From Minisyncoccia bacterium (GTDB taxonomy: Bacteria > Patescibacteriota > Minisyncoccia > Phycocordibacterales > GWA1-40-21): a DNA stretch of 64,000 nt. The DNA lies in assembly GCA_049287185.1 (NCBI GenBank), contig JBAQFI010000004.1, positions 8,125-72,124 of the forward strand, read 5' to 3'. Shown here in pieces: positions 6,270 through 56,911 of this stretch; the stretch's first letter is position 1; every line of letters begins with the position of its first letter. Position numbers and translations under genes: made by a program. Under the pieces are notes generated by a model. The model saw only the letters and a program-made list of their open reading frames with translations. It was not told the DNA's origin and ran no database searches.

Positions 6270-6305
6270 ATCCCCGCCTGCGCGGGGACGACAATCAGAA
6301 TTGTC
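6270..6305. repeat. REP-like tandem hairpins (family A variant)
   Basis: tccccgc-ctgc-gcgggga followed by cgacaat-cag-a-attgtcg. Same two-hairpin module recurs at 56778-56813 and 56877-56911. Confidence 0.6.
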
Positions 6306-6328
6306 GACTTTACCGGGTAAACAAAACA

Positions 6329-9094
6329 ATGGCAAAAGAAACGAAGTATGTGTATGTTTTTGGAAACAAAAAAGCTGACGGTGATGGTAGTATGAAGCCA
6401 CTTCTGGGTGGAAAGGGTGCTAACTTGGCGGAAATGAGCCGAATTGGTTTACCAGTGCCTCCAGGCTTTACTATTACCACCGAAGTTTGTACTTACTATT
6501 ACAATAATAAGAAAACTTACCCAAAAACTTTAGCTCCAAATGTAAAAAACGGAATTTCCCATATTGAAAAAATCATGGGTGTAAAGTTTGGTGATAAATC
6601 TGCCTTACCACTTCTTGTTTCTGTTCGTTCCGGTGCCCGCGATTCTATGCCAGGTATGATGGATACAATTCTCAATCTTGGTTTGAATGATGAAACTGTA
6701 AAAGCTCTAGCTTTGGCTACCAAGAATGAAAGATTTGCTTGGGACTGTTACCGCCGTTTTATTCAAATGTATGGTGATGTTGTGATGGGAGTGCAAAAAC
6801 GTGAAGGTGAAGATCACGAACCGTTTGAAGTTTTGATTGAAGGTTTGAAACACGAAGTTTACAAGAAAGATATTGATGACTCCAAACTGACTGTTGAGGA
6901 TTTAAAGAAACTCATTACTCGTTTTAAAGCTTTGATTAAAGAGCGTTCTGGTAAAGCTTTTCCTCAAGACCCATGGGAACAACTTTGGGGGGCGACCGGT
7001 GCCGTCTTTGGTTCTTGGATGAACGATCGTGCCAATGTCTATCGCCGAAAATATAATATTCCAACTGAGTGGGGAACTGCGGTTAATGTTCAAGCCATGG
7101 TTTACGGAAATACTGGTGATAATTCTGGTTCCGGTGTGGCTTTTACTCGAAACCCTGCCAACGGTGCGAAAGAATTTTACGGTGAATTTTTGATTAATGC
7201 ACAAGGAGAAGATGTCGTGGCTGGAGTTCGTACTCCAGAGCCTGTCGTTCAGCTCGCCAATTACTTGCCAGCTGCTTTCAAAGAATTAAATAATATTCGA
7301 AATGTTTTAGAGAAACATTTTAAAGATGTTCAAGATATTGAATTTACTATTCAAGATGGAAAAGTTTTCATTTTGCAAACTCGTAATGGTAAAAGAACTG
7401 CGCTCGCTGCCCTCAAGTTCTCCATGGACATGGTGAAGGAAAAACTTATTGATTGGAAAACTGCAGTTCGTCGTAACCCAGCTGAACAACTTGACCAACT
7501 TTTGGCTCCAATTTTTGACCCTAAAGCTGAAAAAAGTGCCAAGGTAATTGCTAAAGGTTTACCAGCCGGCCCAGGTGCGGCTTCCGGAAAAATTTATTTT
7601 AACGCCGACAAAGCTGTTATCGCCGCTGCTAGAGGTGAAAAAGTTTTGCTTGTTCGGGCTGAAACTACTCCAGAAGATTTGCGTGGAATGATTGCCGCTG
7701 AAGGAATTTTAACTGCCAAAGGTGGAGTTAGTTCTCATGCTGCACTAGTCGCTCGTCAAATGGGTAAGGTTTGTGTTTGTGGAGTTTCTGCCTTGTGTAT
7801 TGATTACGCCAAGAAAACTTTGTCCGCTGGTGCTGACTGCCAAGTTTTCAAAGAAGGAGATTCAATTTCTATTAACGGAACTTTGGGTACTGTTTATGCT
7901 GGCCAAATCAAAACTGCTCCATCAGAAATTATTCAGGTTTTGGTTAACAAAACTCTTGATCCAAAGAAAAGCGAAGTTTATCAGATGTTCAGTACTCTCA
8001 TGACTTGGTGTGATAAAGCCGCTAAACTAAAAGTTCGCACTAATGCCGATACTCCTGAGCAAGTCGCTAATGCACTGTCCTTTGGTGCTACTGGAGTCGG
8101 ACTCGTTCGTACCGAACATATGTTCTTCGAAGGCAATCGTATTGACGCTATGCGCGAAATGATTTTAGCAGATAATCTCGAAGCTCGTAAGAAAGCGTTA
8201 GCTAAACTTTTGCCATATCAGAAATCAGATTTCGTTGGAATCTTCAAAACCTTGAAAGGTTACCCAGCTACTATTCGTTTCCTCGATCCACCACTACATG
8301 AATTCTTGCCTCACGAAGACAAAGCGCAAAAAGATTTGTCAGTAAAAATGAAAGTTTCTATTGATAAAATTAAACAACGCATGAAAGAACTCCATGAGTT
8401 CAATCCAATGCTCGGTTTCCGTGGCTGTCGCCTTGGAATTGTTTACCCAGAAATTTCTGAAATGCAGGCCCGTGCTGTTTTTGAAGCCGCAGTTGAAGTG
8501 CAAAAAGCTGGTATCAAAGTTAAACCAGAAGTGATGATTCCTTTGGTTGGTTTCAAAAAAGAATTGGATATTCAAATTGAAGTAGTTAATCGTGTCGCCA
8601 AAGAAGTTATGGCCGAAACCAAAACCAAAATTGATTACATGGTCGGAACTATGATTGAAATTCCTCGTGGAGCCCTGACCGCCGATGAGATTGCCGAAAC
8701 TGCTCAGTTCTTTAGTTTCGGAACTAATGACTTAACTCAGACTTGTCTTGGTATGAGCCGTGATGATGCCGGTTCATTCTTGCCAGCTTATCAGGAGAAC
8801 GAAATTATTAAACAAAATCCTTTTGCTTCTATCGATCAAACCGGAGTTGGTCAGCTTATCAAGATTGCGGTGGAGAAGGGTAATAAGACTCGCCCAGGCA
8901 TCAAGATGGGTATCTGTGGAGAGCACGGTGGTGATCCGGCTAGTATCGCTTTCTGTCACAAGGCTGGACTCACTTATGTTAGTTGTTCACCATTCCGAGT
9001 GCCAGTTGCTCGTTTAGCCGCTGCTCAAGTAGCGATTGAAGAAGAAATTAAAGCTGCCGCCGGAGGAACAAAGAAAGTTGCTAAGAAGAAATAA
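6329..9094 (+). CDS. ppdK: pyruvate, phosphate dikinase
   Basis: 921 aa. Start [12 protein letters not shown]...[28 protein letters not shown], central phosphohistidine domain ([19 protein letters not shown]), C-terminal PEP-utilising TIM barrel. Full-length PPDK architecture. Confidence 0.95.
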
Positions 9095-9106
9095 ACTTAA
9101 CAAATT

Positions 9107-9136
9107 AAAACCACTTTCCTCAGAAAGTGGTTTTTT
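9107..9136 (+). terminator. rho-independent terminator after ppdK
   Basis: aaaaccactttcct-cag-aaagtggtttttt. Confidence 0.75.
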
Positions 9137-9147
9137 GTTGTAAAATT

Positions 9148-9534
9148 TTACCGATATGGGTTTCCTCTCATCTCGTCAGTGACCTCAATGAGCTGTTGGG
9201 GAACGACACCACTGACAATCTCAGCTTCGTTTTCGGCGAAACAAAAATATTGTCCGGCCATTGGGAAATCATGCTCTTTCCACCATTTGGCGGCTTTGGG
9301 TTTCTCCTGACCCAAAATTTGTAGTGCCTGTTTTTGAGGAACACTGAAGCCATAGCGATTGACGCTGGCTTTTTTCTTACTCAGGACACCGCGTTCGCCG
9401 CCACTATCAGGGAAACCTAGATAGTGACAACAGGGAAGGAGAAGTCCTTTCCAAGCTTGGCGAATCTTAAGCGGTGCTTCACCAATAGGAACTTTTATAA
9501 TTCTAATCACTCCGGTTGCTCTGTCTCTTTTCAT
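9148..9534 (-). CDS. conserved hypothetical protein (128 aa)
   Basis: Longest ORF in this interval with good codon periodicity. No motif I can assign. The overlapping + and - ORFs in the track are shorter. Confidence 0.4.
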   Translation of the reverse strand: MKRDRATGVIRIIKVPIGEAPLKIRQAWKGLLLPCCHYLGFPDSGGERGVLSKKKASVNRYGFSVPQKQALQILGQEKPKAAKWWKEHDFPMAGQYFCFAENEAEIVSGVVPQQLIEVTDEMRGNPYR

Positions 9535-9716
9535 AAAATCACCCTTTCTTGTTGTAAGTTTCTGTCTGTCGAAGATATTAGCACAGATTTCAGTATTTAC
9601 CAGAAAATGGGTCCTTAAAAGTCAGCTGTTCCCATAAGGTAGTAGAATATGCTATTATATGAGCTATATTAATAATCACTCTAAACGCGTAAGCGCGAAG
9701 GGTAAACAAAAATAAT

Positions 9717-9974
9717 ATGCCAGCAAAAGCAACCTCAGCCTTTATGAAGCCTATGAATGTCAGCGCCGAATTAGCAGCTGTTGTAGGAAAGGGTCCTATG
9801 CCAAGATCAGAAGTCGTTAAGGCTCTCTGGGTTTATATCAAGAAAGCTAATTTACAAGATCCAAAGAACAAGAGAAACATCAATGCTGATGCTAATCTAA
9901 AGAAAGTTTTCGGTGGAAAGGATGTCGTAAATATGTTTGAAATGACCAAATTGGTTTCTAAACACCTTTCATAA
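9717..9974 (+). CDS. SWIB/MDM2 domain protein
   Basis: SAELAAVVGKGPMPRSEVVKALWVYIKKANLQDPKNKRNINADANLKKVFGGKDVVNMFEMTKLVSKHL matches the SWIB-domain consensus end to end. Confidence 0.8.
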   Translation: MPAKATSAFMKPMNVSAELAAVVGKGPMPRSEVVKALWVYIKKANLQDPKNKRNINADANLKKVFGGKDVVNMFEMTKLVSKHLS

Positions 9975-9994
9975 TTTTCGTTTTTAGAATAAGT

Positions 9995-10023
9995 AAAAAG
10001 ACCCTCATTTTGAGGGTTTTTTT
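9995..10023 (+). terminator. rho-independent terminator
   Basis: aaaagaccctca-tttt-gagggtttttttt. Confidence 0.75.
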
Positions 10024-10145
10024 TAATGCACCCGATGATTTGATTGGGCATAACATAGTGATATAATGAATAAAAGTTGAATAGTCTCATAAATTTAGTT
10101 AATAAACTGAATTTTTTATTAAGTTGATAATTTGTAAATAAAATT

Positions 10146-10919
10146 ATGAATAAAAAAGTATTAAGTATTGTTTTAGTTGCAATTGTAATTGTGGCCGGGG
10201 TCGCATATTACGGCTTTCAAAAAAGCTCTCTTTCTACCGGGATAGATAAAGATAGTGTAATGGGTATGATGAAGGAGAAAGGTGATACTGTTATGGATAA
10301 AGCGGAATATATTAGTAAATGTAAGGAATCTGATTTAGATACACAGGATATGTGTTATGCCTTAGGAGCTCTTTATTATCGAGACGCTAGTTTTTGTGGT
10401 TTGATAAAAAGTGCTGAAACAAAAGGAAACTGTAATGAAGAAAAAATTGAAGAGTGGTATGTCACCATGAAAAAAACTGGGGCCACTGGTTTTGAAAGTC
10501 TAGGTGGTTTGACGGGTCAATTACCAAATGCTGGCGATGGAATTTCTAATGGGGATGAACCATCACCTGCAGATGGTGATAATGAAAAGCCAATAGATTA
10601 TTACAACTCGACTAAGGATATAACGTCACTTTCCTCTGTGGCAAATGAAGTCAAAACCATTCTTGGTGAAGCTTGTGGGGCAGTTAAATTAAAACAAGTA
10701 CTCAAAGATCCAATGTCTAAAGCTGATATCTTTGTTTATGTTTGGAAGGAAGAGCCAACTGCAGAAAATTTAGAGAGTAGCTTTGTAAAAAATGGCTATA
10801 CTATAGAAATGTCTGGCGAGTCGCTTATTGTAAAGAAAGGAGATCTTGCGATCGCTGTTAGTTGGGTGGAAGAAATGGCTAGTCAAGAAATTGGTGTCAC
10901 ACCATTCAGCGACAATTAA
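10146..10919 (+). CDS. hypothetical membrane-anchored/secreted protein
   Basis: N-terminal TM/signal anchor, Cys-containing acidic ectodomain, no known motif. Confidence 0.45.
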   Translation: MNKKVLSIVLVAIVIVAGVAYYGFQKSSLSTGIDKDSVMGMMKEKGDTVMDKAEYISKCKESDLDTQDMCYALGALYYRDASFCGLIKSAETKGNCNEEKIEEWYVTMKKTGATGFESLGGLTGQLPNAGDGISNGDEPSPADGDNEKPIDYYNSTKDITSLSSVANEVKTILGEACGAVKLKQVLKDPMSKADIFVYVWKEEPTAENLESSFVKNGYTIEMSGESLIVKKGDLAIAVSWVEEMASQEIGVTPFSDN

Positions 10920-10936
10920 TTGTAAGAATAATAATT

Positions 10937-11176
10937 ATGACAAAAGAAGAAATATCAAACCTTATTAAGGAATATAATCAAAGACTATTAGCTAGAGGCA
11001 CAACCTTAGAGTTTATAGATTTTGAGGATAATAATCTTGAATTAAAATTTACCTGCCAAGATAAGACAGAGTTTTTAGTTCAAGGGAAAAGAGTGACATT
11101 TGCCGATGAAATTAAAAAAGAAATTGAAAAATACCTCAAAGCCAAGATTAATAAAGCTAAAATAATTTTTTTATAA
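10937..11176 (+). CDS. hypothetical protein (79 aa)
   Basis: Compact ORF tightly spaced with neighbours; K/E-rich. Confidence 0.35.
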   Translation: MTKEEISNLIKEYNQRLLARGTTLEFIDFEDNNLELKFTCQDKTEFLVQGKRVTFADEIKKEIEKYLKAKINKAKIIFL

Positions 11177-11180
11177 AAAT

Positions 11181-12404
11181 ATGATATTCGATGTTCAAAC
11201 CGGGCGTATTGATTTGGCTGTATCTGGAGAAAGTGCTTTTATTGTGAGAAAAGGGAAAAAGATTAAAATTCCTTCAGTTGAAACTAAAGCCAAATTGACT
11301 ACCGAATTATTAAAATCTGATGGCAAGGATATTGTTGAGATGCAAAAGTTTGAGAAAGAATATCCTAAGCTTACGGACGGTGATACGCTTGTGTCCGGTT
11401 CCAAAACCATAATCCGTGTCAGTAGTGATTTTAATGTTGGTAGAGATAAGCCACTAGAAGGTTATAAAAATAATTCTTCAAAAATTGTCAGTATGGGACC
11501 GAACAGTGAAATGGTGGTCAGTGGTTTTGAGACTTGGGACAAAACCGGCAAGGATAAAAAAAGAAATCATGGAGAAATGATAAAAAACATTGAATTAAAA
11601 AAGGGTTTTTTCTCAGTGTCCTATAGTAATACCGATGATATTTTGGTAACACCAATAGCTAATGTAAAATTTCTCGGCTTTGGTGGCTCCGGTGGTGTTT
11701 TTGATGTTTATGAAAATATTTTATATAGCAATGCTGGTGGGGAAAAAGGGGTTGAATACACAAACAAAAGAACCAAAGCTGTATATCTAGCCAAATCAAG
11801 TTCACCACAGGAAATAATTGTAAATGGCAGCGGAATTTATAAAAGAGGGGTGCTGTCAGCTGATGATCTCTTTTCTATTAATAATGGTCTTGGACTCATC
11901 TCATATTTTAGTAAAGTATTAACTAATTCTGCACCAGAAATTGATCCTAAAAAAATGGCGGATTCATATAAAAGCATACCAGATAATATGAATCAGGTAC
12001 TTGGAACATTTGAAATGTTTAGCCAGATGACCCCTGAAGACATGGAGAGGATGATGAAATTAAGTGAGGAGCATGGGGAAAAAATAGATCCTGAAATGAA
12101 GAAAAAAATTCGAGAGCAGATGAAAGAGCTGCCTGAGGCAATGAAAGAAATGCAAAAAGCTGGCTATATGGACCAAATGAAAAAAGCCATAGCGATGAAC
12201 AAAGGTATGATGGAAGGTCTTGGAAATGCCGGTATAGATAGATTAGCCAAGGCCTCTTCTGGCGCCATGAAACAAGTAAAAGATACTCATGGACAATTGG
12301 CGAAAATATATATAGGTGAAGGAGGGAAGTCAGTTGATCTGTCATCATATTTAGAATCACCAAGAAAATACAAGCCTTTAACTGACGCCAAAAAAGTTGC
12401 TTAA
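11181..12404 (+). CDS. hypothetical protein, paralog A (N-terminal beta-rich domain + K/E/M-rich helical tail)
   Basis: 407 aa. N-terminal segment FIVRKGKKIKIPSVE resembles YIKRGTKKVKLPKSS in the downstream ORF. C-terminal 100 aa is low-complexity helical (MERMMKLSEEHGEKIDPEMKKKIREQMKELPEAMKEMQKAGYMDQMKK). Confidence 0.5.
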   Translation: MIFDVQTGRIDLAVSGESAFIVRKGKKIKIPSVETKAKLTTELLKSDGKDIVEMQKFEKEYPKLTDGDTLVSGSKTIIRVSSDFNVGRDKPLEGYKNNSSKIVSMGPNSEMVVSGFETWDKTGKDKKRNHGEMIKNIELKKGFFSVSYSNTDDILVTPIANVKFLGFGGSGGVFDVYENILYSNAGGEKGVEYTNKRTKAVYLAKSSSPQEIIVNGSGIYKRGVLSADDLFSINNGLGLISYFSKVLTNSAPEIDPKKMADSYKSIPDNMNQVLGTFEMFSQMTPEDMERMMKLSEEHGEKIDPEMKKKIREQMKELPEAMKEMQKAGYMDQMKKAIAMNKGMMEGLGNAGIDRLAKASSGAMKQVKDTHGQLAKIYIGEGGKSVDLSSYLESPRKYKPLTDAKKVA

Positions 12405-12413
12405 AATAAAATT

Positions 12414-14057: not shown

Positions 14058-14113
14058 TTGTAGTTAAACGGTATAATTTTAAGAGTATATTATTAGTCTA
14101 ATAAAATAAAAAT

Positions 14114-16036: not shown

Positions 16037-16048
16037 ATAGTATTTTTT

Positions 16049-16130
16049 CTGTCATTCCCGCGCAGGCGGGAATCCAGGATTAATTGCAATATTTAGAAGA
16101 TCTGGATTCCCGCCTGCGCGGGAATGACAG
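16049..16130. repeat. REP-like element: perfect 29-bp inverted duplication of the family A palindrome
   Basis: ctgtcattcccgcgcaggcgggaatccag (16049-16077) is the exact reverse complement of ctggattcccgcctgcgcgggaatgacag (16102-16130). Each arm is itself palindromic around cccgc-NNNN-gcggg. Confidence 0.8.
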
Positions 16131-16174
16131 AAAGTTATATTTCTAGCTTTTGAGTCATTTTTGATATATATTTA

Positions 16175-17842: not shown

Positions 17843-17898
17843 CTCAAAAATCAAAACTTAAATCTCAAAAATTAATATAAAAAATCAAAAGTAAGATA

Positions 17899-17931
17899 AG
17901 ACCGGATTTTCGCGTAGCGAAAATCCGGTCT
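17899..17931. terminator. bidirectional terminator between convergent gltX and comFC
   Basis: agaccggattttcg-cgtag-cgaaaatccggtct perfect 14-bp stem. It is flanked on both sides by ~55 bp of AT-rich imperfectly inverted sequence. Confidence 0.7.
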
Positions 17932-17990
17932 TAAACTTTTAAGTTTTAATATTAAGTTTTGAACTTTGATTTTCGAGTTTTGAATTTATT

Positions 17991-26113: not shown

Positions 26114-26147
26114 TACCTTTTTTCTGTCATTCCCGCCTGCGCGGGAA
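26114..26147. repeat. REP-like palindrome (family A)
   Basis: tgtcattcccgc-ctgc-gcgggaatgaca: perfect 12-bp stem, same core as 16049-16130. Confidence 0.8.
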
Positions 26148-26391
26148 TGACAAACAGGGAACAATGTAACTCAAGGCAATATATTGGTATTTCTCCATTT
26201 ATCCACACTTTGTCTTGAATATTTTTATTTTAGTTGTGGTATAATTATTTCACTGACTAATACCCCAAGAGGGTGGCTGGTCGATCCGGTTTTCCGGCAG
26301 TCATAGTCAAGGAAAATTTGCTAGCTTCTCCAAGCTAGACAAAAGTTTTTTAATTAAAAAATTTTTAACAATTAATCGTTCTCTAATTTCA

Positions 26392-26827: not shown

Positions 26828-26839
26828 TTTTACACTTTA

Positions 26840-27387: not shown

Positions 27388-27389
27388 TT

Positions 27390-28190: not shown

Positions 28191-28242
28191 ATTATGTTAA
28201 AGTTTTTTCAAAATTTTAAAAATAAATTCTCATCATCCTGCT

Positions 28243-28335
28243 CGTCATTGCGAGGGTGTACTCACCCGTGGCAATCCAGGATTTTTTTGAATAATAAGAT
28301 GGATTGCCACGTCGGCAGACCTCCTCGCAATGACG
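28243..28335. repeat. REP-like nested inverted repeat (family B) overlapping the start of a minor pilin gene
   Basis: Outer arms cgtcattgcgagg / cctcgcaatgacg; inner arms gtggcaatcc / ggattgccac; central AT-rich spacer. gtcatt...aatgac ends resemble family A. Confidence 0.7.
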
Positions 28336-28922
28336 GAAAGAGAGGTTTTACTTTGATTGAACTCTTGGTCACCCTATCTATTTTTGTGATTGTTGGTAGC
28401 GTAATTCTTTTTAGTCAAAGTCAGTTTAATGGTTCTATTTTACTTTCCAATTTATCTTACGATTTAGCTCTCACTATTCGCCAAGCACAAACTTTTGGAG
28501 TCGGGGGTAAGTCCTTTGGTTTTGATGATACACAAAAACCGAGGTACGGTGTCCATCTAGATACCACAAACAGTAAAAGTATTGTTTTTTTTGCTGATTT
28601 AGATGGGGGAGGAACCTATGACGTTGGTATTTGTCCTAAATCTACCATAGATGACAACCTCGAATGTTTAGAGACTTATAATATTAAAAAAGGAAACAGT
28701 ATAAAAAAAATCTGTGAATATCAGGGAGAAAATACGTCCTGTACAGATTCTTATAGTTCAGTAGATATTACTTTTGAACGACCTGATCCCGATGCTGTTA
28801 TATATGTTGAGAAAACAAAAGCAGATTTTTCTGCTGTGGAGATTGTTATTGGTGATGATTCAGATTCCCAAACTCGTTCTGTGGTTGTTACTTCAGTCGG
28901 CCAGATTTTCATTAAAAAATAA
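28299..28922 (+). CDS. minor pilin / pseudopilin (start revised to the ATG inside the repeat; the track ORF starts at 28194)
   Basis: Leader MDCHVGRPPRNDGKRG|FTLIELLVTLSIFVIVGSV. The upstream extension from 28194 runs through the REP-like element and lacks pilin features. Confidence 0.7.
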   Translation: MDCHVGRPPRNDGKRGFTLIELLVTLSIFVIVGSVILFSQSQFNGSILLSNLSYDLALTIRQAQTFGVGGKSFGFDDTQKPRYGVHLDTTNSKSIVFFADLDGGGTYDVGICPKSTIDDNLECLETYNIKKGNSIKKICEYQGENTSCTDSYSSVDITFERPDPDAVIYVEKTKADFSAVEIVIGDDSDSQTRSVVVTSVGQIFIKK

Positions 28923-38016: not shown

Positions 38017-38157
38017 ACTTCCAATAAAAACGCTAAAGACGCATCTCCTCAAGGGTGCGTCTTTTTTAATTATTAAAGATTGAAAAAATTTAAGAAATAG
38101 GCTATTATCATCACGTACCAAATTACTGATTTTATATTAGTAAAACTGCCGTTGTAG

Positions 38158-38206
38158 CTGTCTTGGTAGCTCGATAAGTCGCACGCCGTTGTAGCTGTCT
38201 TGGTAG
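38158..38206 (+). repeat. two tandem partial copies of the tRNA-Thr 5' end
   Basis: gccgttgtagctgtcttggtag at 38158 and again at 38185, versus the genuine 5' end gccgttgtagctcagttggtag at 38224. Each copy is followed by ~..gtcg(a)..cac. Confidence 0.6.
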
Positions 38207-38223
38207 ATAAAGAAGTCGATCAC

Positions 38224-38299
38224 GCCGTTGTAGCTCAGTTGGTAGAGCACGTCATTGGTAATGACGAGGTCACCAGTTCAATCCTGGTCAACGGCTCCA
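38224..38299 (+). tRNA. tRNA-Thr (GGU), CCA encoded
   Basis: GCCGUUG/CAACGGC acceptor, D-arm GCUC-AGUUGGUA-GAGC, anticodon arm CGUCA-uuGGUaa-UGACG, T-arm CACCA-GUUCAAU-CCUGG... discriminator U, CCA. Confidence 0.85.
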
Positions 38300-38344
38300 A
38301 AAATAAAATCGCTCAATAAGCGATTTTATTTTTGGAGCCGTTGA
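38288..38344. terminator. 26-bp perfect inverted repeat that includes the last 12 nt of tRNA-Thr (terminator / inverted tRNA 3'-end copy)
   Basis: tcaacggctccaaaaataaaatcgct (38288-38313), caata loop, then agcgattttatttttggagccgttga (38319-38344), the exact reverse complement. Followed by hairpin gtatgcaaat-tt-atttgcatac and ccaggattgaa (reverse complement of the T-loop region). Confidence 0.7.
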
Positions 38345-38539
38345 AGTATGCAAATTTATTTGCATACGTCCAGGATTGAAAGGCACAGCGATGTTTTTCG
38401 AACCACCAGCGAGAAAAACCGCGAGCCGGGGTCGCGAGCACCTACATATTTTGACAGAATATAATTCTGTCAAAATATTTAGTGACTCGAGACCAATCAG
38501 ACGAGTCTTCGAGTCTCCTGGTCAACGTTTTATCTGTTG

Positions 38540-38612
38540 AGCCAAGGGCGAGGATCGAACTCGCGACCTGCTGATTACGAATCAGCTGCTCTACCAACTG
38601 AGCTACCTTGGC
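38540..38612 (-). tRNA. tRNA-Thr (CGU)
   Basis: Minus-strand read GCCAAGG-UA-GCUC-AGUUGGUA-GAGC-A-GCUGA-uuCGUaa-UCAGC-AGGUC-GCGAG-UUCGAUC-CUCGC-CCUUGGC-U. Confidence 0.85.
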
Positions 38613-49227: not shown

Positions 49228-49275
49228 CCCGATTCCACGACTTCTTTTTTAGTCAATTTCTGCTAGAATTAGCCA

Positions 49276-50055: not shown

Positions 50056-50114
50056 TGTCATACGAGACTTTCCCGGTGGTAAATACCGCTTTTATAACAT
50101 ATAATTAAACCGTT

Positions 50115-50642: not shown

Positions 50643-50653
50643 AACCAACATAT

Positions 50654-51043: not shown

Positions 51044-51052
51044 GAAACTGAT

Positions 51053-51637: not shown

Positions 51638-51653
51638 TATATAATACATACAT

Positions 51654-51941
51654 ATGAAGACATTAATTCATGCTGATATATTCTTTTTTATTACTACTAT
51701 CATTGCTATTTTAATTGGGATTTTTATTATTGCCGTTCTTATTTATATTATAAGGATTTTACGTGATGTTAAAAAAGTTTCCAAGACTGTTCAAGAGGGG
51801 ACAGAAGTAATTGCCGAAGATTTAAAAAGCTTTCAAGGGGCACTTAGAGAGGAAGGTGGACAGTTGCGCAGTTTATTTAAATTCTTAACTAGTTTTTTTA
51901 CAAGAGCCACAAAACGGTCAAAAAAGACTAAAAAAGAGTAA
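51654..51941 (+). CDS. hypothetical small membrane protein
   Basis: One TM (FFITTIIAILIGIFIIAVLIYII), basic C-terminus. Confidence 0.35.
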   Translation: MKTLIHADIFFFITTIIAILIGIFIIAVLIYIIRILRDVKKVSKTVQEGTEVIAEDLKSFQGALREEGGQLRSLFKFLTSFFTRATKRSKKTKKE

Positions 51942-52025
51942 TTATTATTAGCTAATCAACCCGTAAAAATTTTGACTGAAAAATCTCCGATTTTTAACTA
52001 GTCAAAACTTTACCGGGTAAATATT

Positions 52026-52370
52026 ATGGCAAAAAAAGTAAAAAGTCATGTTGGTGGAAAAGTCGCTTTAGGTTTAGCGGTTCTCGCTGCTGGAGCCGCA
52101 GGTGCCTATTTCCTTTATGGAACCAAAGAAGGGGCCAAGATGAAGAAACAAATTAAAGGCTGGACCGTTAAAATGAAAGGTGAAATTCTTCACAAGATGG
52201 AGAGTATGAAAGACGTCAGTGAGGTAAATTATCACAAACTTATTGATGAGGCTCAAAAGAAATATCGTGGAGTAAAAAGTATTGATCCAAGAGAATTAGA
52301 TAAATTAGTCGCTGAATTAAAGAGTCACTGGAAGAATATCAAGAAGGAGTTTGAAGCAGGACAAAGATAG
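52026..52370 (+). CDS. hypothetical membrane-anchored protein
   Basis: N-terminal TM GGKVALGLAVLAAGAAGAYFLY. Terminator downstream. Confidence 0.4.
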   Translation: MAKKVKSHVGGKVALGLAVLAAGAAGAYFLYGTKEGAKMKKQIKGWTVKMKGEILHKMESMKDVSEVNYHKLIDEAQKKYRGVKSIDPRELDKLVAELKSHWKNIKKEFEAGQR

Positions 52371-52410
52371 TATGTAGTATAAAGTATTTAGTATATAGTA
52401 TAGAAAAGAT

Positions 52411-52454
52411 AAATTCCCAGTTTCGTTTTACGAAACTGGGAATTTATATTTTTT
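52411..52454 (+). terminator. rho-independent terminator
   Basis: aaattcccagtttcg-tttta-cgaaactgggaattt + T-run. Confidence 0.75.
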
Positions 52455-52473
52455 AGATTTTAAACTTTGAGTT

Positions 52474-53259
52474 TTGGTTTTATTTTTGTATACTTGCTTA
52501 ATGAATGAAAAACGCACGTCATGGAATAAAGTAGCTACTTGGTATGACACTTTATTGTCTTTGGATGATACCTATCAAAAGGAGGTAATTTTGCCGAATT
52601 TACTGAGAATATTAGATCCCAAACCCGGAGTTAAGATTATTGATATCGCTTGTGGACAGGGCTATTTTGCCAAGAATTTCGCTAATTTGGGTGCAGAAAT
52701 AGTCGGTGTGGACATTTCCTCTAATTTGATTAAATTTGCCCAAAAGGATGCTAATAAGAATGAAAAATATTATGTGTCTTCAGCCGATAAATTAAGCAAG
52801 GAAATTCCAAGTAATTACTTTGATAAAGCAGTAATTGTCCTGGCCTTGCAGAATATTGAAAACATTGCCGGCGCTTTGGCAGAAGCAAGCAGAGTTCTGA
52901 AAACGGGCGGAAATCTATGTTTAGTTTTAAACCATCCGGCCTTTAGAATTCCTAAACAGAGTAGTTGGGGTTATGATGAAGTTGCTCAAGTCCAATATCG
53001 TCGAGTTGATGCCTATTTGTCAGAAGCAAAAATTGAAATCGAAATGCACCCAGGGCAAGAGAAAAGTGAAAGCACGATTTCTTTTCATCGACCACTTCAA
53101 TTATATTTTAAAAATCTAGCCAAAAATAAATTTGTCATTACTCGTCTGGAAGAGTGGACATCACACAAGAAAAGTACGAAGGGACCGCGGCAAAAAGCGG
53201 AGGATAAATCTCGTCATGAAATCCCTTTATTTATGATGATTGAGGCTAAGAAAGAATAA
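52474..53259 (+). CDS. class I SAM-dependent methyltransferase
   Basis: Motif I IIDIACGQGYFAKNFANLGAEIVGVDIS, post-I acidic, motif II region. Confidence 0.7.
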   Translation: MVLFLYTCLMNEKRTSWNKVATWYDTLLSLDDTYQKEVILPNLLRILDPKPGVKIIDIACGQGYFAKNFANLGAEIVGVDISSNLIKFAQKDANKNEKYYVSSADKLSKEIPSNYFDKAVIVLALQNIENIAGALAEASRVLKTGGNLCLVLNHPAFRIPKQSSWGYDEVAQVQYRRVDAYLSEAKIEIEMHPGQEKSESTISFHRPLQLYFKNLAKNKFVITRLEEWTSHKKSTKGPRQKAEDKSRHEIPLFMMIEAKKE

Positions 53260-53273
53260 ATCATCATATTGTA

Positions 53274-53317
53274 CACCTCCCCAAATAAGCCATGGCTTAT
53301 TTGGGGAGGTTTTGTTT
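53274..53317. terminator. bidirectional terminator
   Basis: cctccccaaataagcc-atgg-cttatttggggagg, 15-bp perfect stem between convergent genes. Confidence 0.75.
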
Positions 53318-53335
53318 AAGGCTATTAAAAATTTT

Positions 53336-54505
53336 CTACTTCGTATCCTTAAGAGTAATGGCAAATCTTAGACCGTATAACATTATAAGACCCAGAACAA
53401 AAAACATAATTCGTAAATCGAAAAATAGCAGGAAAGCAGTGGCTGTGAGTGGTGCAATAACGCTAGCGAGCGGTGCAATAGAACGGTAAGCACTGATTAA
53501 ATTGGCATTATCCCCATTAACCTTTTTAAAGAAGTAAGTTTCGGTCATCATTTCAATTGTGGCGGCACCAATACGAGTGGTGAAAAGAATAACGGCCAGA
53601 ATTATCATGCTTGTTGTGTTTAGAAAAGTCAGCGAAGCAGTACTCAGTGCAATTATTACTAGTCCGGCAATCAGCATCTCTTTTTCACCAAGCTTTTTAT
53701 CCGCTAAGCGTCCTAATGGGTAATCTAAAATAACAAAAGGAATTAACATAAAGATAAGGACAATACTAATTTGCCCCCAAGACAAGTGTATATAATTATG
53801 AAGATAAATCGGAGTATAAATAACCATCCAGGTATAAAAGAAGCGAAGCAGAAAGTTAATTATATATATTCTTCTTAAGTTGAGATTATTCCAGATTTGT
53901 TTTCCAGCTAAAAAGAGGGAAGGCTCAGTATATTTAGGATCAGAAAAATCACTAAATTTAAAATAAATAATTAAAATAATCGGAATCAAAGGTATCGCTG
54001 AAATTAAAAATATTTTCCAGTACTCATTATTTGTTAGCAGAAAGGCGGAAACCAGTGGTGACAGTACCCAGGCCATGTTAATACTAGTTAAATAAAAACC
54101 ACGGATTTGCCCAGTCGCTTGATTGGCCGAATATTTTTCCAAAAAAATATCAATACTGAAGGATAATAAGCTTATGCTTATTTGATTAATAATAAAGAAC
54201 ATTATTAGCATAACTGGATCTTTGCTAAGTACTATGCCAATTAGTGACAAGAAGGCAATGATGGAAAGAGTTAGGGTGGTTCGATAATTTCCAAAGCGTC
54301 GTAAAAAAGTTGGAATGACAAAAAAGGCAATCAAAGTAATTAGCGCTGAAAATGAATATATTAGACCAACGGCTTGTTCGCTAGAGAGATAAGAGAGAAA
54401 AGTTGAAGTAACATAGGCGGGAATAGCCACCTGTAAGGAAAAGAGAAAACCCAATATATAAACGGTATAGAGATTATTGGATAGGATATTGATAACGCGT
54501 TTCAT
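53336..54505 (-). CDS. MFS transporter
   Basis: 12 predicted TM; MFS-like loop motif LGRLADKKLGEKEM between TM2 and TM3. Confidence 0.6.
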   Translation of the reverse strand: MKRVINILSNNLYTVYILGFLFSLQVAIPAYVTSTFLSYLSSEQAVGLIYSFSALITLIAFFVIPTFLRRFGNYRTTLTLSIIAFLSLIGIVLSKDPVMLIMFFIINQISISLLSFSIDIFLEKYSANQATGQIRGFYLTSINMAWVLSPLVSAFLLTNNEYWKIFLISAIPLIPIILIIYFKFSDFSDPKYTEPSLFLAGKQIWNNLNLRRIYIINFLLRFFYTWMVIYTPIYLHNYIHLSWGQISIVLIFMLIPFVILDYPLGRLADKKLGEKEMLIAGLVIIALSTASLTFLNTTSMIILAVILFTTRIGAATIEMMTETYFFKKVNGDNANLISAYRSIAPLASVIAPLTATAFLLFFDLRIMFFVLGLIMLYGLRFAITLKDTK

Positions 54506-54648
54506 GGTTTGTTAAATAATGTAAAATGTAAAAATCAAAATGTAAAATGACAATTTAAAATAAAAAAATATAAGAAATAGAAGAAAAGAAATAATTTAGT
54601 CTTAATCCCATAATTTTGATATTTGATTTTTGCATTTTGATATACTTG

Positions 54649-56757
54649 CTATACCCCGATTAGAACTGGAATTACCATTGGGCGCTTGTTAGTCTTTTGG
54701 TAGAGGAATTTACTCACATTGTCTGTTAGATTATTTTTAACATAATCAAAGTTAATCGGATTCATACCGTGTGTGCTTTCTTCTATGGTCTTTTTAATAA
54801 TGTTTCGAGTTTCTTGCAGGAGTTCTTGTGATTCACGTAAATAGACAAAACCACGAGAGATAATGTCCGGAGATTTACGAATCTTACCAGTGCTTGGGTT
54901 AATACTAGCAATAATCACGAACATGCCGTCTTGAGCGAGCATCTGGCGGTCTCGAATAACTACCTCTTGAATATTTCCAACAGAAAAACCATCCACCAAA
55001 ACCAAGCCTGATGGAGCCTTTTCTTTTAATTTAACAATTTTCTCACCCTGATCCTGAATTTCAATTACCGTACCGTTGTCGGGAATAATAATATTTTTTT
55101 CAGGCATACCTAGTCCAAGCGCAATGTCAGTGTGAACGCGTAGTGAATGGTGATAGCCGTGAATTGGGATAAAATATTTTGGATTAATTTTCTTATGAAC
55201 CCAAATAATTTCATCGCGATTAGCGTGTCCTGACGAGTGAACGGCCTCCATTTTGTAGTGGATGATTCTGGTACCATGACGGGAAATATTGTCTTTCAAT
55301 TTTTGTACCGCCATTTCGTTACCTGGCACGACTGAAGAGGAAAGAACAATAGTATCTCTCTTGGTTAGTTTAATATACTTGTGGCTCTTGGTAGACATTC
55401 TCATTAGGGCGGCAAATTCATCACCTTGAGCCCCTGTTGCTACCACCACTATCTTGTCTGGTGGATAACTTTCGATATTATCAACTGGAATAATGGTGCC
55501 CGGTTTAGCTTTGAGAACACCCATCTTCTTAACAATCTCAATATTGTTTTTCATACTGCGGCCTTCAATCACAACTTTCTTGCCATATTTTTCAGCAATT
55601 TCAATTATTTTAATTATACGCTCCAAAAGGGAAGAGAAAGTACCAACAATCAGTCGTCCTTGAGCCTCACGAATAATTTTTTCGAGATTTTCAGCTACCA
55701 CTCTTTCGGGTAGAGTAAATCCGGGATTTTCGACGTTGGTAGATTCAGCCAAGAGCAACAAAGTTTTTTCCTTTGTGAAACGAGAAAATTCTGCTTCTTC
55801 TTTCTCTGTCGGCTTGCCGTTTTCAGTATCAACCTTAAGGTCACCGGTGTAGATAATATTTCCATAAGGAGTTTTAATAATGAGGCCCATGGCATCGGGG
55901 ATAGTGTGGGTGACTTTAAAAAAGCTGACAGATATACTTCCAAAAGTCACAATACTTTCCTCATCAACCACTTTGTAATTGATGTCTGCTAAATGAGGAA
56001 ACTCTTCCTGACGTTTCTTGAGCATCAAACTGGTAAGCTCTCGAGTATAAATTGGTGGATTACCTATGAGGTCCATAATATATGGTACAGCCCCGATATG
56101 GTCTAAGTGACCATGAGTAATAAACAAACCACGAACCCGACCCTTATTATTTTCGAGATACTTAGTATTAGGCAAAATATAATCGATACCTGGAGTTTCA
56201 TCTTCTTGAAATTGAAAACCGGCATCAATAACAATAATATCCTGACCAATTTCAATCATCGTCATGTTCTTACCAATCTCCTCAACTCCTCCGAGTGGAA
56301 TAATACGGATATTTCCAGGTGCCAAAGGTGGTATTTGTTCTTCTCTTTTACCATGAGGAGCACTCGATTCGGATAAATTAAAAGTTGTCGGGTCCTTAAA
56401 AGCGCTCAAAGCGTCATTGTGAGAGTTCCTGTTTATTCTTTCAGATTGTGGACGAGAATGATGTTGGTTTGGTTGGTAAGGTTTTTTATTAAATGAGGAA
56501 CCTGGAAAGCCACCAGTATTGGTTCTTGGTCTATTATAATTGCTAAATCTTTTGTGGTCAGTCTGGGGCTGTCCAGGATGAAGATGTTTAGCTGGGGTAG
56601 TGTGACTCGGCACATATGGACCAGTATTTCTAGTTTGAGGGTGAGCGGGATGAGAATGCATTGGTAAAGTAGCACCTGGTGTTTTAGGACGTAAACTAGC
56701 AAAGATGCTAGAGCTATTATTCGTACGGCTTGGAGTTCTTTTTGTATATCTATTCAT
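54649..56757 (-). CDS. rnj: ribonuclease J with ~150-aa basic low-complexity N-terminal extension
   Basis: Metallo-beta-lactamase HxHxDH (LFITHGHLDHIGAVPYI), beta-CASP and RNase J C-terminal domain. The N-terminal 150 aa are rich in P/H/N/R/K/S (RTPSRTNNSSS...HPAHPQTRNTGPYVPSHTTP...NQHHSRPQSERINRNSHND). Confidence 0.8.
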   Translation of the reverse strand: MNRYTKRTPSRTNNSSSIFASLRPKTPGATLPMHSHPAHPQTRNTGPYVPSHTTPAKHLHPGQPQTDHKRFSNYNRPRTNTGGFPGSSFNKKPYQPNQHHSRPQSERINRNSHNDALSAFKDPTTFNLSESSAPHGKREEQIPPLAPGNIRIIPLGGVEEIGKNMTMIEIGQDIIVIDAGFQFQEDETPGIDYILPNTKYLENNKGRVRGLFITHGHLDHIGAVPYIMDLIGNPPIYTRELTSLMLKKRQEEFPHLADINYKVVDEESIVTFGSISVSFFKVTHTIPDAMGLIIKTPYGNIIYTGDLKVDTENGKPTEKEEAEFSRFTKEKTLLLLAESTNVENPGFTLPERVVAENLEKIIREAQGRLIVGTFSSLLERIIKIIEIAEKYGKKVVIEGRSMKNNIEIVKKMGVLKAKPGTIIPVDNIESYPPDKIVVVATGAQGDEFAALMRMSTKSHKYIKLTKRDTIVLSSSVVPGNEMAVQKLKDNISRHGTRIIHYKMEAVHSSGHANRDEIIWVHKKINPKYFIPIHGYHHSLRVHTDIALGLGMPEKNIIIPDNGTVIEIQDQGEKIVKLKEKAPSGLVLVDGFSVGNIQEVVIRDRQMLAQDGMFVIIASINPSTGKIRKSPDIISRGFVYLRESQELLQETRNIIKKTIEESTHGMNPINFDYVKNNLTDNVSKFLYQKTNKRPMVIPVLIGV

Positions 56758-56777
56758 TATTGTTTATCCGATTAAAT

Positions 56778-56911
56778 CGACAATCCTGATTGTCGTCCCC
56801 GCGTAGGCAGGGCTCCAGTCAGTTTGTCTTCTTTTTTTCGGGTTGATTATCTATTAATATTTTTTAAGATTGGATCGTCTCCTGTGCGGGGACGATAATT
56901 AGAATTGTCGA
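56778..56911. repeat. pair of REP-like two-hairpin modules in opposite order flanking a 63-bp AT-rich spacer
   Basis: 56778-56813 cgacaat-cctg-attgtcg + tccccgcgtaggcaggg. 56877-56911 cgtctcc-tgtgc-ggggacg + ataatt-ag-aattgtcg. Same module as 6270-6305. The second copy abuts the stop codon of the SBP gene. Confidence 0.6.

What the first reader, a model, noticed from the sequence alone, without database searches (positions are those of the whole stretch)
6270..56911. Families of dispersed REP-like palindromes in intergenic regions
Two families recur across the window.
- Family A (core cccgc-NNNN-gcggg flanked by gtcatt/aatgac) occurs at 16049-16130 and 26114-26147, with a degenerate copy at 62211-62240. 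The 16049-16130 site is a perfect 29-bp inverted duplication able to form a cruciform or long hairpin.
- A two-hairpin variant (tccccgc..gcgggga + cgacaat..attgtcg) occurs at 6270-6305, 56778-56813 and 56877-56911.
They always sit between genes (ppdK leader, udg/gltX, pilC/pilA, rnj/SBP). Such a density of related extragenic palindromes is notable for a small, streamlined genome and suggests active REP mobilisation. The 56778/56877 pair, in opposite module order around a 63-bp spacer, resembles a REPIN doublet.
Basis: seen in the sequence. Interest (0 to 1): 0.55.

Follow-up and report, generated by a model that had tools for sequence, protein, structure and literature searches.

The report
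Pan-bacterial NTS/SRM hairpin repeats, REPIN-like
The scattered GC-rich palindromes in this small Patescibacteria genome are real, but they belong to a hairpin-repeat family already described across many bacterial phyla (Neisseria dRS3/NTS, "Ssn-related motifs"). This makes the finding a new member of a known kind, not a new phenomenon.

Summary
CCCGC-N4-GCGGG cores occur 5 times against 0.13 expected, and all elements are extragenic.

The elements form one superfamily with the frame GTC(A/G)T-hairpin-ATCCAG:
- Family A (16046-16133 doublet, 26121-26154, 62204-62243) matches the published Neisseria NTS consensus with one mismatch.
- The two-hairpin variant B is the same motif with a compensated T-A to C-G stem change plus an extra upstream hairpin.

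The same 28-mer occurs in at least 120 species-level genomes from many phyla, and also in phage and plasmid records.

In related loci, small GIY-YIG (Ssn-like) genes sit between an inverted pair of these hairpins. This is the layout of the window's doublets with the gene replaced by about 24 nt, so the doublets look like non-autonomous, MITE- or REPIN-like derivatives.

An 85%-identity relative lacks the udg|gltX doublet, which is an insertion polymorphism.

No ssn gene lies in the window. A RAYT-like Y1 transposase (62312-62977) does, but it is bracketed by its own, different palindrome.

None of the elements looks like a terminator.

Verdict: new member of a known kind, of moderate interest.

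The parts
16046..16077 (+). Family A doublet, left arm: TTTCTGTCATTCCCGCGCAGGCGGGAATCCAG (the SRM/NTS motif on the + strand)
   Evidence: Matches the strict SRM regex and matches the NTS consensus with 1 mismatch. 100% complementary to the right arm (I6). ssDNA hairpin -10 kcal/mol, z -4.6.
16078..16101 (.). 24-nt AT-rich spacer of the A doublet
   Evidence: In other genomes the spacers are 12-83 nt (mode 24-25). They are not conserved between genomes but are nearly identical within one genome.
16102..16133 (-). Family A doublet, right arm (the SRM motif on the - strand)
   Evidence: Strict SRM regex hit on the - strand. The whole doublet folds at -42.5 kcal/mol, z -13. The doublet aligns end to end at 75-87% identity to elements in other phyla. 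It is absent from relatives L244 and L245.
26121..26154 (.). Single family A copy with GTCATT ends on both sides, read as a 'collapsed doublet' (TTTCTGTCATTCCCGCCTGCGCGGGAATGACAAACA)
   Evidence: D9, D10. It keeps both outer ends of the doublet. The base after the palindrome is G, not the C found in 97% of copies. It lies downstream of pilC's own terminator-like hairpin. The deletion origin is inferred.
28243..28278 (+). A' doublet, left arm: CGTCATTGCGAGGGTGTACTCACCCGTGGCAATCCA
   Evidence: (I13). It has the same GTCATT...AATCCAG frame. The type is found in 20 of 240 related loci and as two doublets in L243.
28300..28335 (-). A' doublet, right arm. The ATG at 28299-28301 lies at its edge and is in frame with the pilin-like ORF.
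   Evidence: N_methyl motif at aa 49-71 of ORF 28194..28922. The doublet folds with z -7.9.
6262..6324 (-). Variant B single arm in the ppdK leader. On the - strand it reads TCGACAATTCTGATTGTCGTCCCCGCGCAGGCGGGGATCCAGTCAG, that is, an extra hairpin followed by an SRM-like hairpin.
   Evidence: I2, D2. It misses the SRM regex by 1 position. ssDNA fold z -5.1. Flank similarity continues to about 6225, matching the spacer of the 56760 doublet.
56760..56822 (+). Variant B doublet, left arm (next to the rnj start codon)
   Evidence: (I2, I4).
56823..56867 (.). Spacer of the B doublet. It contains TTTTTTTCGGGTTGATTAT, which is also found beside the single arm at 6230-6248 and in L243.
56868..56913 (-). 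Variant B doublet, right arm (degenerate). It abuts the SBP gene stop codon at 56912-56914.
   Evidence: (I4, D2).
62204..62243 (.). Decayed family A copy (CTGTCATTACTACGCAGACAGGAATGACAA)
   Evidence: (D9). Weak fold, z -3.95.
62249..62288 (.). Family C palindrome CATCGTGAGGCAAGGCCTCACGATG plus an extra half-copy, upstream of the RAYT-like gene. This is a separate system.
62312..62977 (+). RAYT-like Y1 (HUH) transposase gene, 221 aa. It is not part of the A/B family but bears on the rival explanation.
   Evidence: Pfam Y1_Tnp, 33 bits. NCBIfam REP_Tyr_transpos, 46 bits, below the cutoff of 80. Orthologs are single-copy and hairpin-flanked.
63005..63029 (.). Family C palindrome downstream of the RAYT-like gene

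Best explanation
The elements are copies of the pan-bacterial dRS3/NTS/'Ssn-related motif' (SRM) hairpin-repeat family. Each unit is a directional motif: GTC(A/G)T, then a GC-rich stem with a GNAR loop, then ATC-CAG. The motif is expected to act as a hairpin in single-stranded DNA.

In Neisseria and three other tested species this motif is bound by a roughly 95-aa GIY-YIG nuclease (Ssn), which cuts a few nucleotides upstream of it, on that strand only.

The ssn gene normally sits between two such motifs in inverted orientation, with the GTCAT ends facing outward. The window's doublets have the same layout with a spacer of about 24-47 nt in place of the gene. I therefore read them as non-autonomous (MITE- or REPIN-like) derivatives. 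They would be spread by an Ssn-type enzyme that is encoded elsewhere in this genome, has been lost, or acted before the DNA was acquired.

The copies in the window are at different stages:
- one perfect doublet (16046-16133);
- two diverged doublets (A' and B);
- one arm plus part of a spacer (ppdK leader);
- one collapsed copy (26121);
- one decayed copy (62204).

Shown here: family membership by sequence, hairpin potential and covariation, extragenic location, cross-phylum distribution, the ssn-between-inverted-motifs architecture in other genomes, and presence/absence polymorphism in a relative.

Inferred: that an Ssn-type enzyme is the agent in this genome, that doublets derive from the gene-bearing unit, and that the single copies arose by deletion.
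For: Match to the published motif:
- 16050-16077(+) and 16102-16129(-) match NTS (CGTCATTCCCGCGMAVGCGGGAATCYRG) with 1 mismatch. They are the only strict SRM-regex hits in the window, against 0.06 expected (definitions from PMC11893778).
- The B hairpin misses the regex at one position. It carries the ATCCCCGC/GCGGGGAT stem, which also flanks ssn genes elsewhere.

Distribution:
- The core pattern hit the 120-locus limit in viral contigs.
- The doublet also matches Microcystis phage MaAM05 (12 places) and plasmids or chromids of Legionella, Azospirillum and Cupriavidus.
- The whole doublet aligns end to end at 75-87% identity to elements in other phyla.
- 25 of 121 hits are inverted doublets with complementary loops.

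Association with ssn:
- GIY-YIG ORFs (Pfam PF01541, E about 1e-16) lie within 150 nt of a motif in 6 of 240 loci. All six have the layout motif(+)-ORF-motif(-).
- By my reading of the printed flanks, about 19 of 22 further ssn loci show an SRM-like motif within about 100 nt of the ORF, most of them upstream in the + orientation. The stems vary but the GTCAT...ATCCAG frame is kept.
- The Y7/Y18/E65 spacing equals that of Nm SsnA Y6/Y17/E64.

Constraint on the motif (435 copies):
- 37 compensated against 6 uncompensated changes at one stem pair, and 35 against 5 at another.
- C after the palindrome in 97% of copies. This is the base most critical for SsnA binding.
- Strand-specific GNAR loops.

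Window-level evidence:
- ssDNA folds have z from -4 to -13.
- The relative L244 lacks the doublet.
- All sites are extragenic although only 15% of the window is intergenic.
Against: - No ssn homolog is present in the 64-kb window (tblastn at E 1e-3; regex). The rest of the MAG could not be read.
- None of the roughly 35 Patescibacteria loci recovered carries ssn, although each locus is only 8 kb.
- Only 2 of 9 arms pass the strict SRM regex. A' has a longer, bulged stem than the published definition allows.
- Ssn has been shown to cleave ssDNA and to modulate transformation. It has not been shown to transpose anything.
- With inverted motifs each strand carries only one cleavable site, so a cut-out mechanism of the IS200/IS605 type does not follow directly.
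- A preprint attributes the identical Neisseria core to a Group 2 RAYT.
Confidence: 0.55

Rival explanations
1. The elements are REP/REPIN elements mobilised by a REP-associated tyrosine transposase (RAYT). The candidate is the Y1 (HUH) transposase gene at 62312-62977, acting on ssDNA hairpins as in the E. coli and Pseudomonas REP-RAYT systems.
For: - A Y1_Tnp gene lies in the window, with a decayed family A copy about 70 nt upstream of its ATG.
- Bertels & Rainey treat the identical Neisseria core ATTCCCGCGCAGGCGGGAATC as a REPIN population maintained by a Group 2 RAYT. They report REPIN decay where the RAYT is frameshifted.
- The inverted-pair architecture fits the REPIN definition.
Against: - The gene is bracketed on both sides by a different palindrome, family C, which occurs nowhere else in the window.
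- Orthologs in other Patescibacteria are single-copy, sit in a fixed context, and are flanked by co-varying C-like hairpins with no A-type motif nearby.
- Neither tblastn nor a family HMM finds a member of this family in about 1.9 Mb of motif-centred loci. Six ssn genes were found there, each adjacent to a motif.
- The protein scores 46 bits against a cutoff of 80 for the NCBIfam RAYT equivalog.
- Caveat: the HMM may miss distant Group 2 RAYTs.
Confidence: 0.15
2. The hairpins function mainly at the RNA or transcription level, as terminators, attenuators, mRNA-stabilising or processing stem-loops, or a shared 5'-leader regulatory element for ppdK and rnj. On this view they are conserved for that role and are not mobile DNA.
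For: - B lies 2-4 nt upstream of two start codons in the same orientation, with about 100 nt of shared sequence (I2, 90).
- A B-like arm with compensated stem changes occupies the orthologous SBP|rnj spacer in a 70%-identity relative.
- The B doublet makes up the whole SBP|rnj spacer.
Against: - No element is followed by a T-run or scored as terminator-like. pilC and the pilin gene have their own canonical terminators next to an A copy.
- Promoter-like matches are at chance level.
- Rfam finds nothing but tRNAs.
- The same sequences occur next to unrelated genes, in either orientation, in many phyla and even in organisms with 63% GC. In L243 the B arm faces the other way relative to rpmA.
- The A doublet is dispensable in a close relative.
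- SsnA does not bind the RNA form of the motif.
Confidence: 0.12
3. The palindromes are operator sites for a dimeric transcription factor, or other double-stranded DNA protein-binding sites (for example CGACAAT-N4-ATTGTCG).
For: The sites are perfect short palindromes in promoter-proximal positions upstream of ppdK and rnj.
Against: - The flanks are directional, the loops are strand-specific, and compensatory stem changes preserve pairing while the sequence changes.
- The elements occur as long inverted doublets after stop codons.
- Distribution across phyla shows no shared regulon.
Confidence: 0.03

Closest known systems
Neisseria dRS3 / NTS repeats and 'Ssn-related motifs' (SRM), with the SsnA GIY-YIG ssDNA nuclease (Chenal et al. 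2025, PMC11893778)
   Same: - The sequence is nearly identical: the window arm TGTCATTCCCGCGCAGGCGGGAATCCAG against the NTS consensus CGTCATTCCCGCGMAVGCGGGAATCYRG.
- It contains the dRS3 core ATTCCC-N8-GGGAAT.
- It has the directional GTC upstream and C-CAG downstream flanks and forms an ssDNA hairpin.
- It is extragenic (NTS is inside genes in only 2% of cases in N. meningitidis).
- Copies cluster around pilus genes.
- The family is spread across phyla.
   Different: - The host is a roughly 36% GC Minisyncoccia (Patescibacteria) MAG, a group the paper does not mention.
- No ssn gene is visible in 64 kb.
- The copies are organised mainly as inverted doublets.
- Variant B has an added upstream hairpin where SsnA would cut.
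- Variant A' has a longer bulged stem that falls outside the published SRM regex.
REPINs and RAYTs (Bertels & Rainey; Nunvar et al.; E. coli TnpA-REP)
   Same: - Short extragenic palindromes occur in inverted pairs less than 130 bp apart, and the pair is the replicating unit.
- Spacers are nearly identical within a genome (L172 against L218; the two L243 A' doublets).
- A single-copy Y1 transposase flanked by hairpins is present in the window.
- The Neisseria core sequence is itself called a REPIN in that literature.
   Different: - The Y1 transposase here is flanked by another palindrome family, and it scores below the RAYT equivalog threshold.
- The gene found next to these motifs across genomes is a GIY-YIG nuclease, not a Y1 transposase.
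MITEs: non-autonomous derivatives of IS elements, such as Correia elements and Rickettsia palindromic elements
   Same: - Terminal inverted repeats with a short non-coding interior.
- The same ends as a gene-bearing unit (motif-ssn-motif).
- Presence/absence polymorphism between relatives.
- Occasional contribution to coding sequence (the ATG for the pilin-like ORF), as with RPEs.
   Different: - No target-site duplication is evident.
- The 'parent' gene encodes a small ssDNA nuclease that has not been shown to be a transposase.
- Each terminal repeat is itself a hairpin.
IS200/IS605 and IS110/IS1111-type elements that use or target hairpins
   Same: They depend on ssDNA hairpins, or target REP-like palindromes. 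dRS3 is a known target of a phage recombinase in Neisseria.
   Different: No such transposase lies adjacent to the A/A'/B copies. The inverted, rather than same-strand, arrangement of cleavable motifs does not fit peel-and-paste transposition.

Membership tests
NTS / SRM (Ssn-related motif) repeats | Sequence matches NTS CGTCATTCCCGCGMAVGCGGGAATCYRG with at most 1 mismatch (the paper's own search criterion) | tested here: met
   16050-16077(+) and 16102-16129(-) differ only at base 1, T for C (criterion).
NTS / SRM (Ssn-related motif) repeats | Matches the degenerate SRM pattern HGTCWYN(0-2)YYVSBRHN(0-5)WNVSBRGN(0-2)RNCYNB, enriched over dinucleotide shuffles | tested here: met
   There are 2 strict hits against 0.06 expected. 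B at 6266-6293(-) misses by 1 position. The other arms (A', the collapsed copy, the decayed copy, two B arms) do not pass, so the test is met for the A doublet only.
NTS / SRM (Ssn-related motif) repeats | Directional flanks: GTC just upstream of the palindrome (needed for cleavage) and C just after it (critical for binding) | tested here: met
   Present in the A, A' and B arms. C follows the palindrome in 97% of 435 family copies. Not met by the collapsed copy at 26121-26154, where G follows the palindrome.
NTS / SRM (Ssn-related motif) repeats | Forms a hairpin as single-stranded DNA, with pairing maintained in evolution | tested here: met
   DNA folds have z from -4.6 to -13. Compensated against uncompensated changes are 37:6 and 35:5 at the two stem pairs examined.
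NTS / SRM (Ssn-related motif) repeats | The genome encodes a cd10448-type single-domain GIY-YIG (Ssn) gene, typically flanked by the motif | tested here: inconclusive
   There is none in the 64-kb window, and the rest of the MAG is unreachable. The association itself was reproduced in other genomes: 6 of 6 ssn loci, and about 19 of 22 by my reading of the printed flanks.
NTS / SRM (Ssn-related motif) repeats | Strand-specific binding and cleavage by the cognate Ssn on ssDNA | not testable with these tools
   This needs a biochemical assay.
dRS3 | 20-bp palindrome ATTCCC-N8-GGGAAT | tested here: met
   16054-16073, 16106-16125 and 26129-26148.
REP/REPIN-RAYT system | Extragenic palindromes occurring as inverted pairs less than 130 bp apart (REPIN) | tested here: met
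   Three doublets in the window (I4, I6, I13).
REP/REPIN-RAYT system | A RAYT gene flanked by the same REP sequence that is dispersed in the genome | tested here: not met
   The RAYT-like gene is bracketed by family C hairpins, which are not dispersed in the window. Only a decayed A copy lies further upstream. Orthologs are flanked by C-like hairpins, not A or B.
REP/REPIN-RAYT system | The transposase belongs to the REP-associated tyrosine transposase family (Group 2 or 3 RAYT) | tested here: inconclusive
   Pfam Y1_Tnp is met, at 33 bits against a cutoff of 23. NCBIfam NF047646 gives 46 bits against a cutoff of 80.
Intrinsic (Rho-independent) terminators | GC-rich stem-loop directly followed by a T-run on the transcribed strand | tested here: not met
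   No terminator-like call overlaps any element. Canonical terminator-like sites exist elsewhere, at 26839 and 17897-17933.
MITE | Terminal inverted repeats shared with an autonomous element, plus target-site duplication | tested here: inconclusive
   The terminal inverted repeats and the shared ends with motif-ssn-motif units are seen. No clear target-site duplication is visible at 16046/16133, and no clean empty site was available, because L244 carries another element there.

The most novel reading that the evidence does not exclude
The roughly 85-140-bp inverted doublet is the non-autonomous form of a so far unrecognised class of selfish element. Its 'transposase' would be the small GIY-YIG ssDNA nuclease Ssn, with the full unit being motif-ssn-motif. 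Such doublets would persist and turn over even in ultra-reduced Patescibacteria genomes, possibly without a resident ssn gene, for example through DNA taken up by the type IV pilus machinery that they flank here. Some copies would have been co-opted: the B arm retained, with compensated stem changes, in the SBP|rnj spacer of a 70%-identity relative, and the A' arm supplying the start codon of a pilin-like gene.
Probability: 0.25. Interest if true: 0.7.

Novelty: new member of a known kind. Interest (0 to 1): 0.38.

Why it matters
The finding places a repeat in a streamlined candidate-phyla-radiation genome into the NTS/SRM family. That family was tied to a partner enzyme only in 2025, and it is still claimed by two mechanisms in the literature: the Ssn nuclease and the RAYT transposase.

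This window is a natural test case for that disagreement. It holds NTS-type doublets and, separately, a RAYT-like gene with its own distinct hairpins.

The architecture seen here is an ssn gene between inverted motifs in other genomes, against gene-less doublets in this one. It gives a concrete, testable model for how these repeats multiply.

Practically, these motifs generate spurious ORFs and peptides (VIPAQAGIQ, PRNDG and similar) and can move annotated start codons, so recognising them improves the annotation of MAGs.

Tried and rejected
- Exact-protein look-ups to reach the source contig failed for window ORFs and for the 100%-identical database proteins. The genome-wide census and the search for ssn in this MAG were therefore impossible.
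- Rfam at gathering thresholds found only tRNAs.
- Fuzzy SRM matching with 1-2 substitutions is at or below the shuffle level (4 hits against 2.75 expected; 56 against 36). It adds no credible copies beyond B.
- A first crude GIY-YIG regex found nothing. A relaxed regex plus tblastn found ssn genes only outside the window.
- The first tblastn with the RAYT-like protein used a frame-shifted translation and was repeated correctly. The 46% identities come from that wrong-frame query and should be ignored.
- Variant B was not found in viral contigs. It occurred in only 3 metagenome loci.
- PDB sequence search gave nothing for the RAYT-like protein and only a weak UPF0213 GIY-YIG hit for the Ssn-like ORF. 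NCBIfam has no model for the Ssn-like ORFs.
Its udg|gltX spacer (236 nt) and SBP|rnj spacer (244 nt) could not be inspected.
- I considered and rejected the terminator, operator-site, and 'lineage-specific repeat' readings. The reasons are given under the rival explanations.
Full report
**Observation**

- CCCGC-N4-GCGGG (up to 1 mismatch) occurs 5 times against 0.13 expected.
- The flanked family-A pattern occurs 3 times against 0.00 expected.
- CGACAAT-N4-ATTGTCG occurs 3 times against 0.20 expected.

The repeat finder sharpened the anatomy.
- The udg|gltX element is a doublet of 32-nt arms (16046-16077 and 16102-16133). The arms are 100% complementary and separated by 24 nt.
- The rnj|SBP element is a doublet of 46-nt arms around 47 nt.
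- The ppdK-leader copy (6262-6324) is 87% complementary to 56760-56822 over 63 nt.
It has the same GTCATT...AATCCAG ends but a different inner stem ("A'").

Pfam confirms the gene contexts: PpdK, UDG|GltX, PilC|pilins|PilD|pilin-like, SBP_bac_5|RNase J. About 15% of the window is intergenic, yet all six independent sites are extragenic.

**One superfamily, not two families**

Read on the appropriate strand, every arm has the frame GTC(A/G)T - stem - loop - stem - ATCCAG.
- A is TGTCATTCCCGCGCAGGCGGGAATCCAG.
- The first hairpin of B is TGTCGTCCCCGCGCAGGCGGGGATCCAG. This is the same motif with a compensated T-A to C-G stem change, preceded by an extra hairpin (CGACAAT-N4-ATTGTCG) that overlaps the GTC.
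- A' keeps GTCATTGC...GCAATCCAG around a longer, variable inner stem.
- The single copy at 26121-26154 retains both outer TTTCTGTCATT ends of the doublet. It looks like a doublet collapsed by deletion between the two ATTCCCGC repeats; this origin is an inference.
- 62204-62243 is a decayed copy of that collapsed form.

All elements fold strongly as ssDNA, with z from -4 to -13.

**Identification**

A literature search on the Neisseria dRS3 repeat led to Chenal et al. 2025 (PMC11893778). That paper reports the following.
- It defines the 28-nt Neisseria Transformation Sequence, CGTCATTCCCGCGMAVGCGGGAATCYRG, which contains dRS3 (ATTCCC-N8-GGGAAT).
- It defines a degenerate 'Ssn-related motif' (SRM).
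- SsnA, a 94-aa single-domain GIY-YIG protein, binds the motif only as ssDNA and only on one strand, and cuts a few nucleotides upstream.
- The C after the palindrome is critical for binding, and the three bases before the palindrome are critical for cutting.
- ssn genes in many phyla are flanked by SRMs.

The window's A arms match NTS with one mismatch. They are the only strict SRM hits in the window, 2 against 0.06 expected.

**Distribution**
- A 28-nt pattern that included this genome's TTTCTGTCATT flank hit the same limit in species-representative genomes. The hits span Patescibacteria, Omnitrophota, Nitrospirota, Thermodesulfobacteriota, Planctomycetota, Chloroflexota, Cyanobacteria, Legionella, Coxiellaceae, Alphaproteobacteria, Spirochaetes, Firmicutes and others.
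- The whole doublet aligns end to end at 75-87% identity to elements in other phyla.
- It also matches a Microcystis phage (12 places) and plasmids or chromids of Legionella, Azospirillum, Cupriavidus and others.
- Variant B is rarer. It gave no viral hit and 3 metagenome loci. Two of those are from organisms with 63% GC. The third, L243, also carries two A' doublets.

**Architecture and partner gene**

Among 121 exact hits in the genome loci, 26 have a second exact arm within 140 nt, and 25 of these are inverted with the GTCAT ends facing outward. Their spacers are 12-83 nt, with a mode of 24-25. The two loops of a doublet are complementary to each other. Spacers differ between genomes but are nearly identical within a genome (the two L243 doublets). 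The doublet therefore behaves as the replicating unit, as in REPINs.

Small GIY-YIG ORFs lie within 150 nt of a motif in 6 of 240 motif-centred loci.
- They match Pfam PF01541 at E about 1e-16.
- Their Y7/Y18/E65 spacing equals that of SsnA Y6/Y17/E64.
- All six show the layout motif(+) - ORF - motif(-).

A protein-based scan added 22 more ssn loci. By my reading of the printed flanks, about 19 of them have an SRM-like motif within about 100 nt of the ORF. Most are upstream in the + orientation, and many have an inverted motif after the stop codon. The stems vary (ATTCCCGC, ATCCCCGC, ATTGCCCGG, ACCCCGGG) inside the conserved frame. This links the B-type stem, and less firmly the A'-type stem, to the same system.

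The window's doublets thus have the layout of the gene-bearing unit with the ORF replaced by a short spacer.

Across 435 copies:
- stem changes are mostly compensated, 37 against 6 at one pair and 35 against 5 at another;
- the base after the palindrome is C in 97% of copies;
- loops are GNAR on the motif strand only.

This is the signature of a strand-specific, structure-dependent ligand.

**Turnover**

The source is an NCBI 'Minisyncoccia bacterium' MAG, on a contig of 84,806 bp.
- A relative with 85% GltX identity keeps udg|gltX synteny but lacks the A doublet. It has a different inverted-repeat element in the same spacer.
- A relative with 70% RNase J identity keeps SBP|rnj synteny and has a single B-like arm there. 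One pair in each hairpin is compensated, and one pair is mismatched.

So some sites turn over quickly, while at least one is old or is a recurrent target.

**The RAYT question**

The window encodes a 221-aa Y1 (HUH) transposase at 62312-62977. It scores 33 bits on Pfam Y1_Tnp and 46 bits on the NCBIfam RAYT equivalog, whose cutoff is 80.

It is bracketed by identical 25-nt palindromes of a different family ("C"), which occur nowhere else in the window. Orthologs are abundant in Patescibacteria. They are single-copy, sit in a fixed context, and are flanked by co-varying hairpins (GCGTTAGG-loop-CCTAACGC) with no A-type motif nearby.

Neither tblastn nor a family HMM finds a relative in the roughly 1.9 Mb of motif-centred loci.

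A preprint (10.1101/2021.07.10.451892) nonetheless treats the identical Neisseria core as a REPIN maintained by a Group 2 RAYT, and a decayed A copy lies about 70 nt upstream of the gene here. I therefore keep this rival at 0.15.

**Other rivals**

No element is scored as terminator-like, while canonical terminators exist next to them. Promoter-like matches are at chance level. Rfam finds nothing. SsnA does not bind the RNA form of the motif. RNA-level side effects remain possible. This applies most to the B arm, which ends 2-4 nt before the ppdK and rnj start codons.

**Limits**

No ssn gene lies in the window, and I could not reach the rest of the MAG. Ssn is a demonstrated ssDNA nuclease and a modulator of transformation, but it is not a demonstrated transposase. 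With inverted motifs each strand has only one cleavable site, so the copying mechanism is unknown.

**Verdict**

The elements are a new member, in a new host phylum and with lineage variants A' and B, of a known repeat family. Interest is moderate, at 0.38.

Noticed in passing
window 28194-28922 (especially 28299-28345): The A' doublet lies between pilD and a pilin-like ORF. The only in-frame start codon close to the GFTLIEL prepilin motif is the ATG at 28299-28301, at the edge of the element's right arm. It would give the leader MDCHVGRPPRNDGKR-GFTLIEL. The repeat therefore appears to supply the start codon and leader peptide of this gene.
   Followed up: partly
window 62249-63030: A RAYT-like Y1 transposase gene (62312-62977) is bracketed by identical 25-nt palindromes (CATCGTGAGGCAAGGCCTCACGATG), with an extra half-copy upstream. 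Orthologs in many Patescibacteria are single-copy, sit in a fixed context, and are flanked by co-varying hairpins (GCGTTAGG..CCTAACGC). This is a separate REP-RAYT-like unit.
   Followed up: partly
window 38148-38380: tRNA-Thr(GGT) at 38224-38299 is preceded by two partial direct copies of its 5' end (38148 and 38185). It is followed by a perfect 26-nt inverted repeat that includes the tRNA 3' end (38288-38313 / 38319-38344), plus an inverted partial T-arm copy. These look like scars of integration or excision at a tRNA gene. A second tRNA-Thr(CGT) lies in the opposite orientation at 38539-38612.
   Followed up: no
L244 731-897 (relative with 85% GltX identity): The udg|gltX spacer of this relative holds a different inverted-repeat element (AAACCCAATGACCAA ... 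TTGGTCATTGGGGTTT) where the window has the A doublet. The spacer seems to be a recurrent landing site for palindromic elements.
   Followed up: no
window 53273-53312: A perfect 17-bp stem hairpin (ACACCTCCCCAAATAAGCCATGGCTTATTTGGGGAGGTTT) lies between two convergent genes. It looks like a bidirectional terminator and is unrelated to the repeat families.
   Followed up: no
L243 5567-5663, 6278-6340, 6664-6760: One metagenome contig (Ga0194053_10000080, 43.7% GC) carries two A' doublets with nearly identical spacers and asymmetric arms, plus a B arm just upstream of rpmA, all within 1.2 kb. This is the same trio of element types as in the window. Out-of-frame ORFs across them give the peptides VVPAKAGIQ and WIPAFAGTT, which often appear in spurious hypothetical proteins.
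   Followed up: partly
window 63105-64000: An ORF with a signal-peptide-like N-terminus and glycine-rich GGGGAGG-type repeats runs off the end of the window, immediately after the RAYT-like unit.
   Followed up: no
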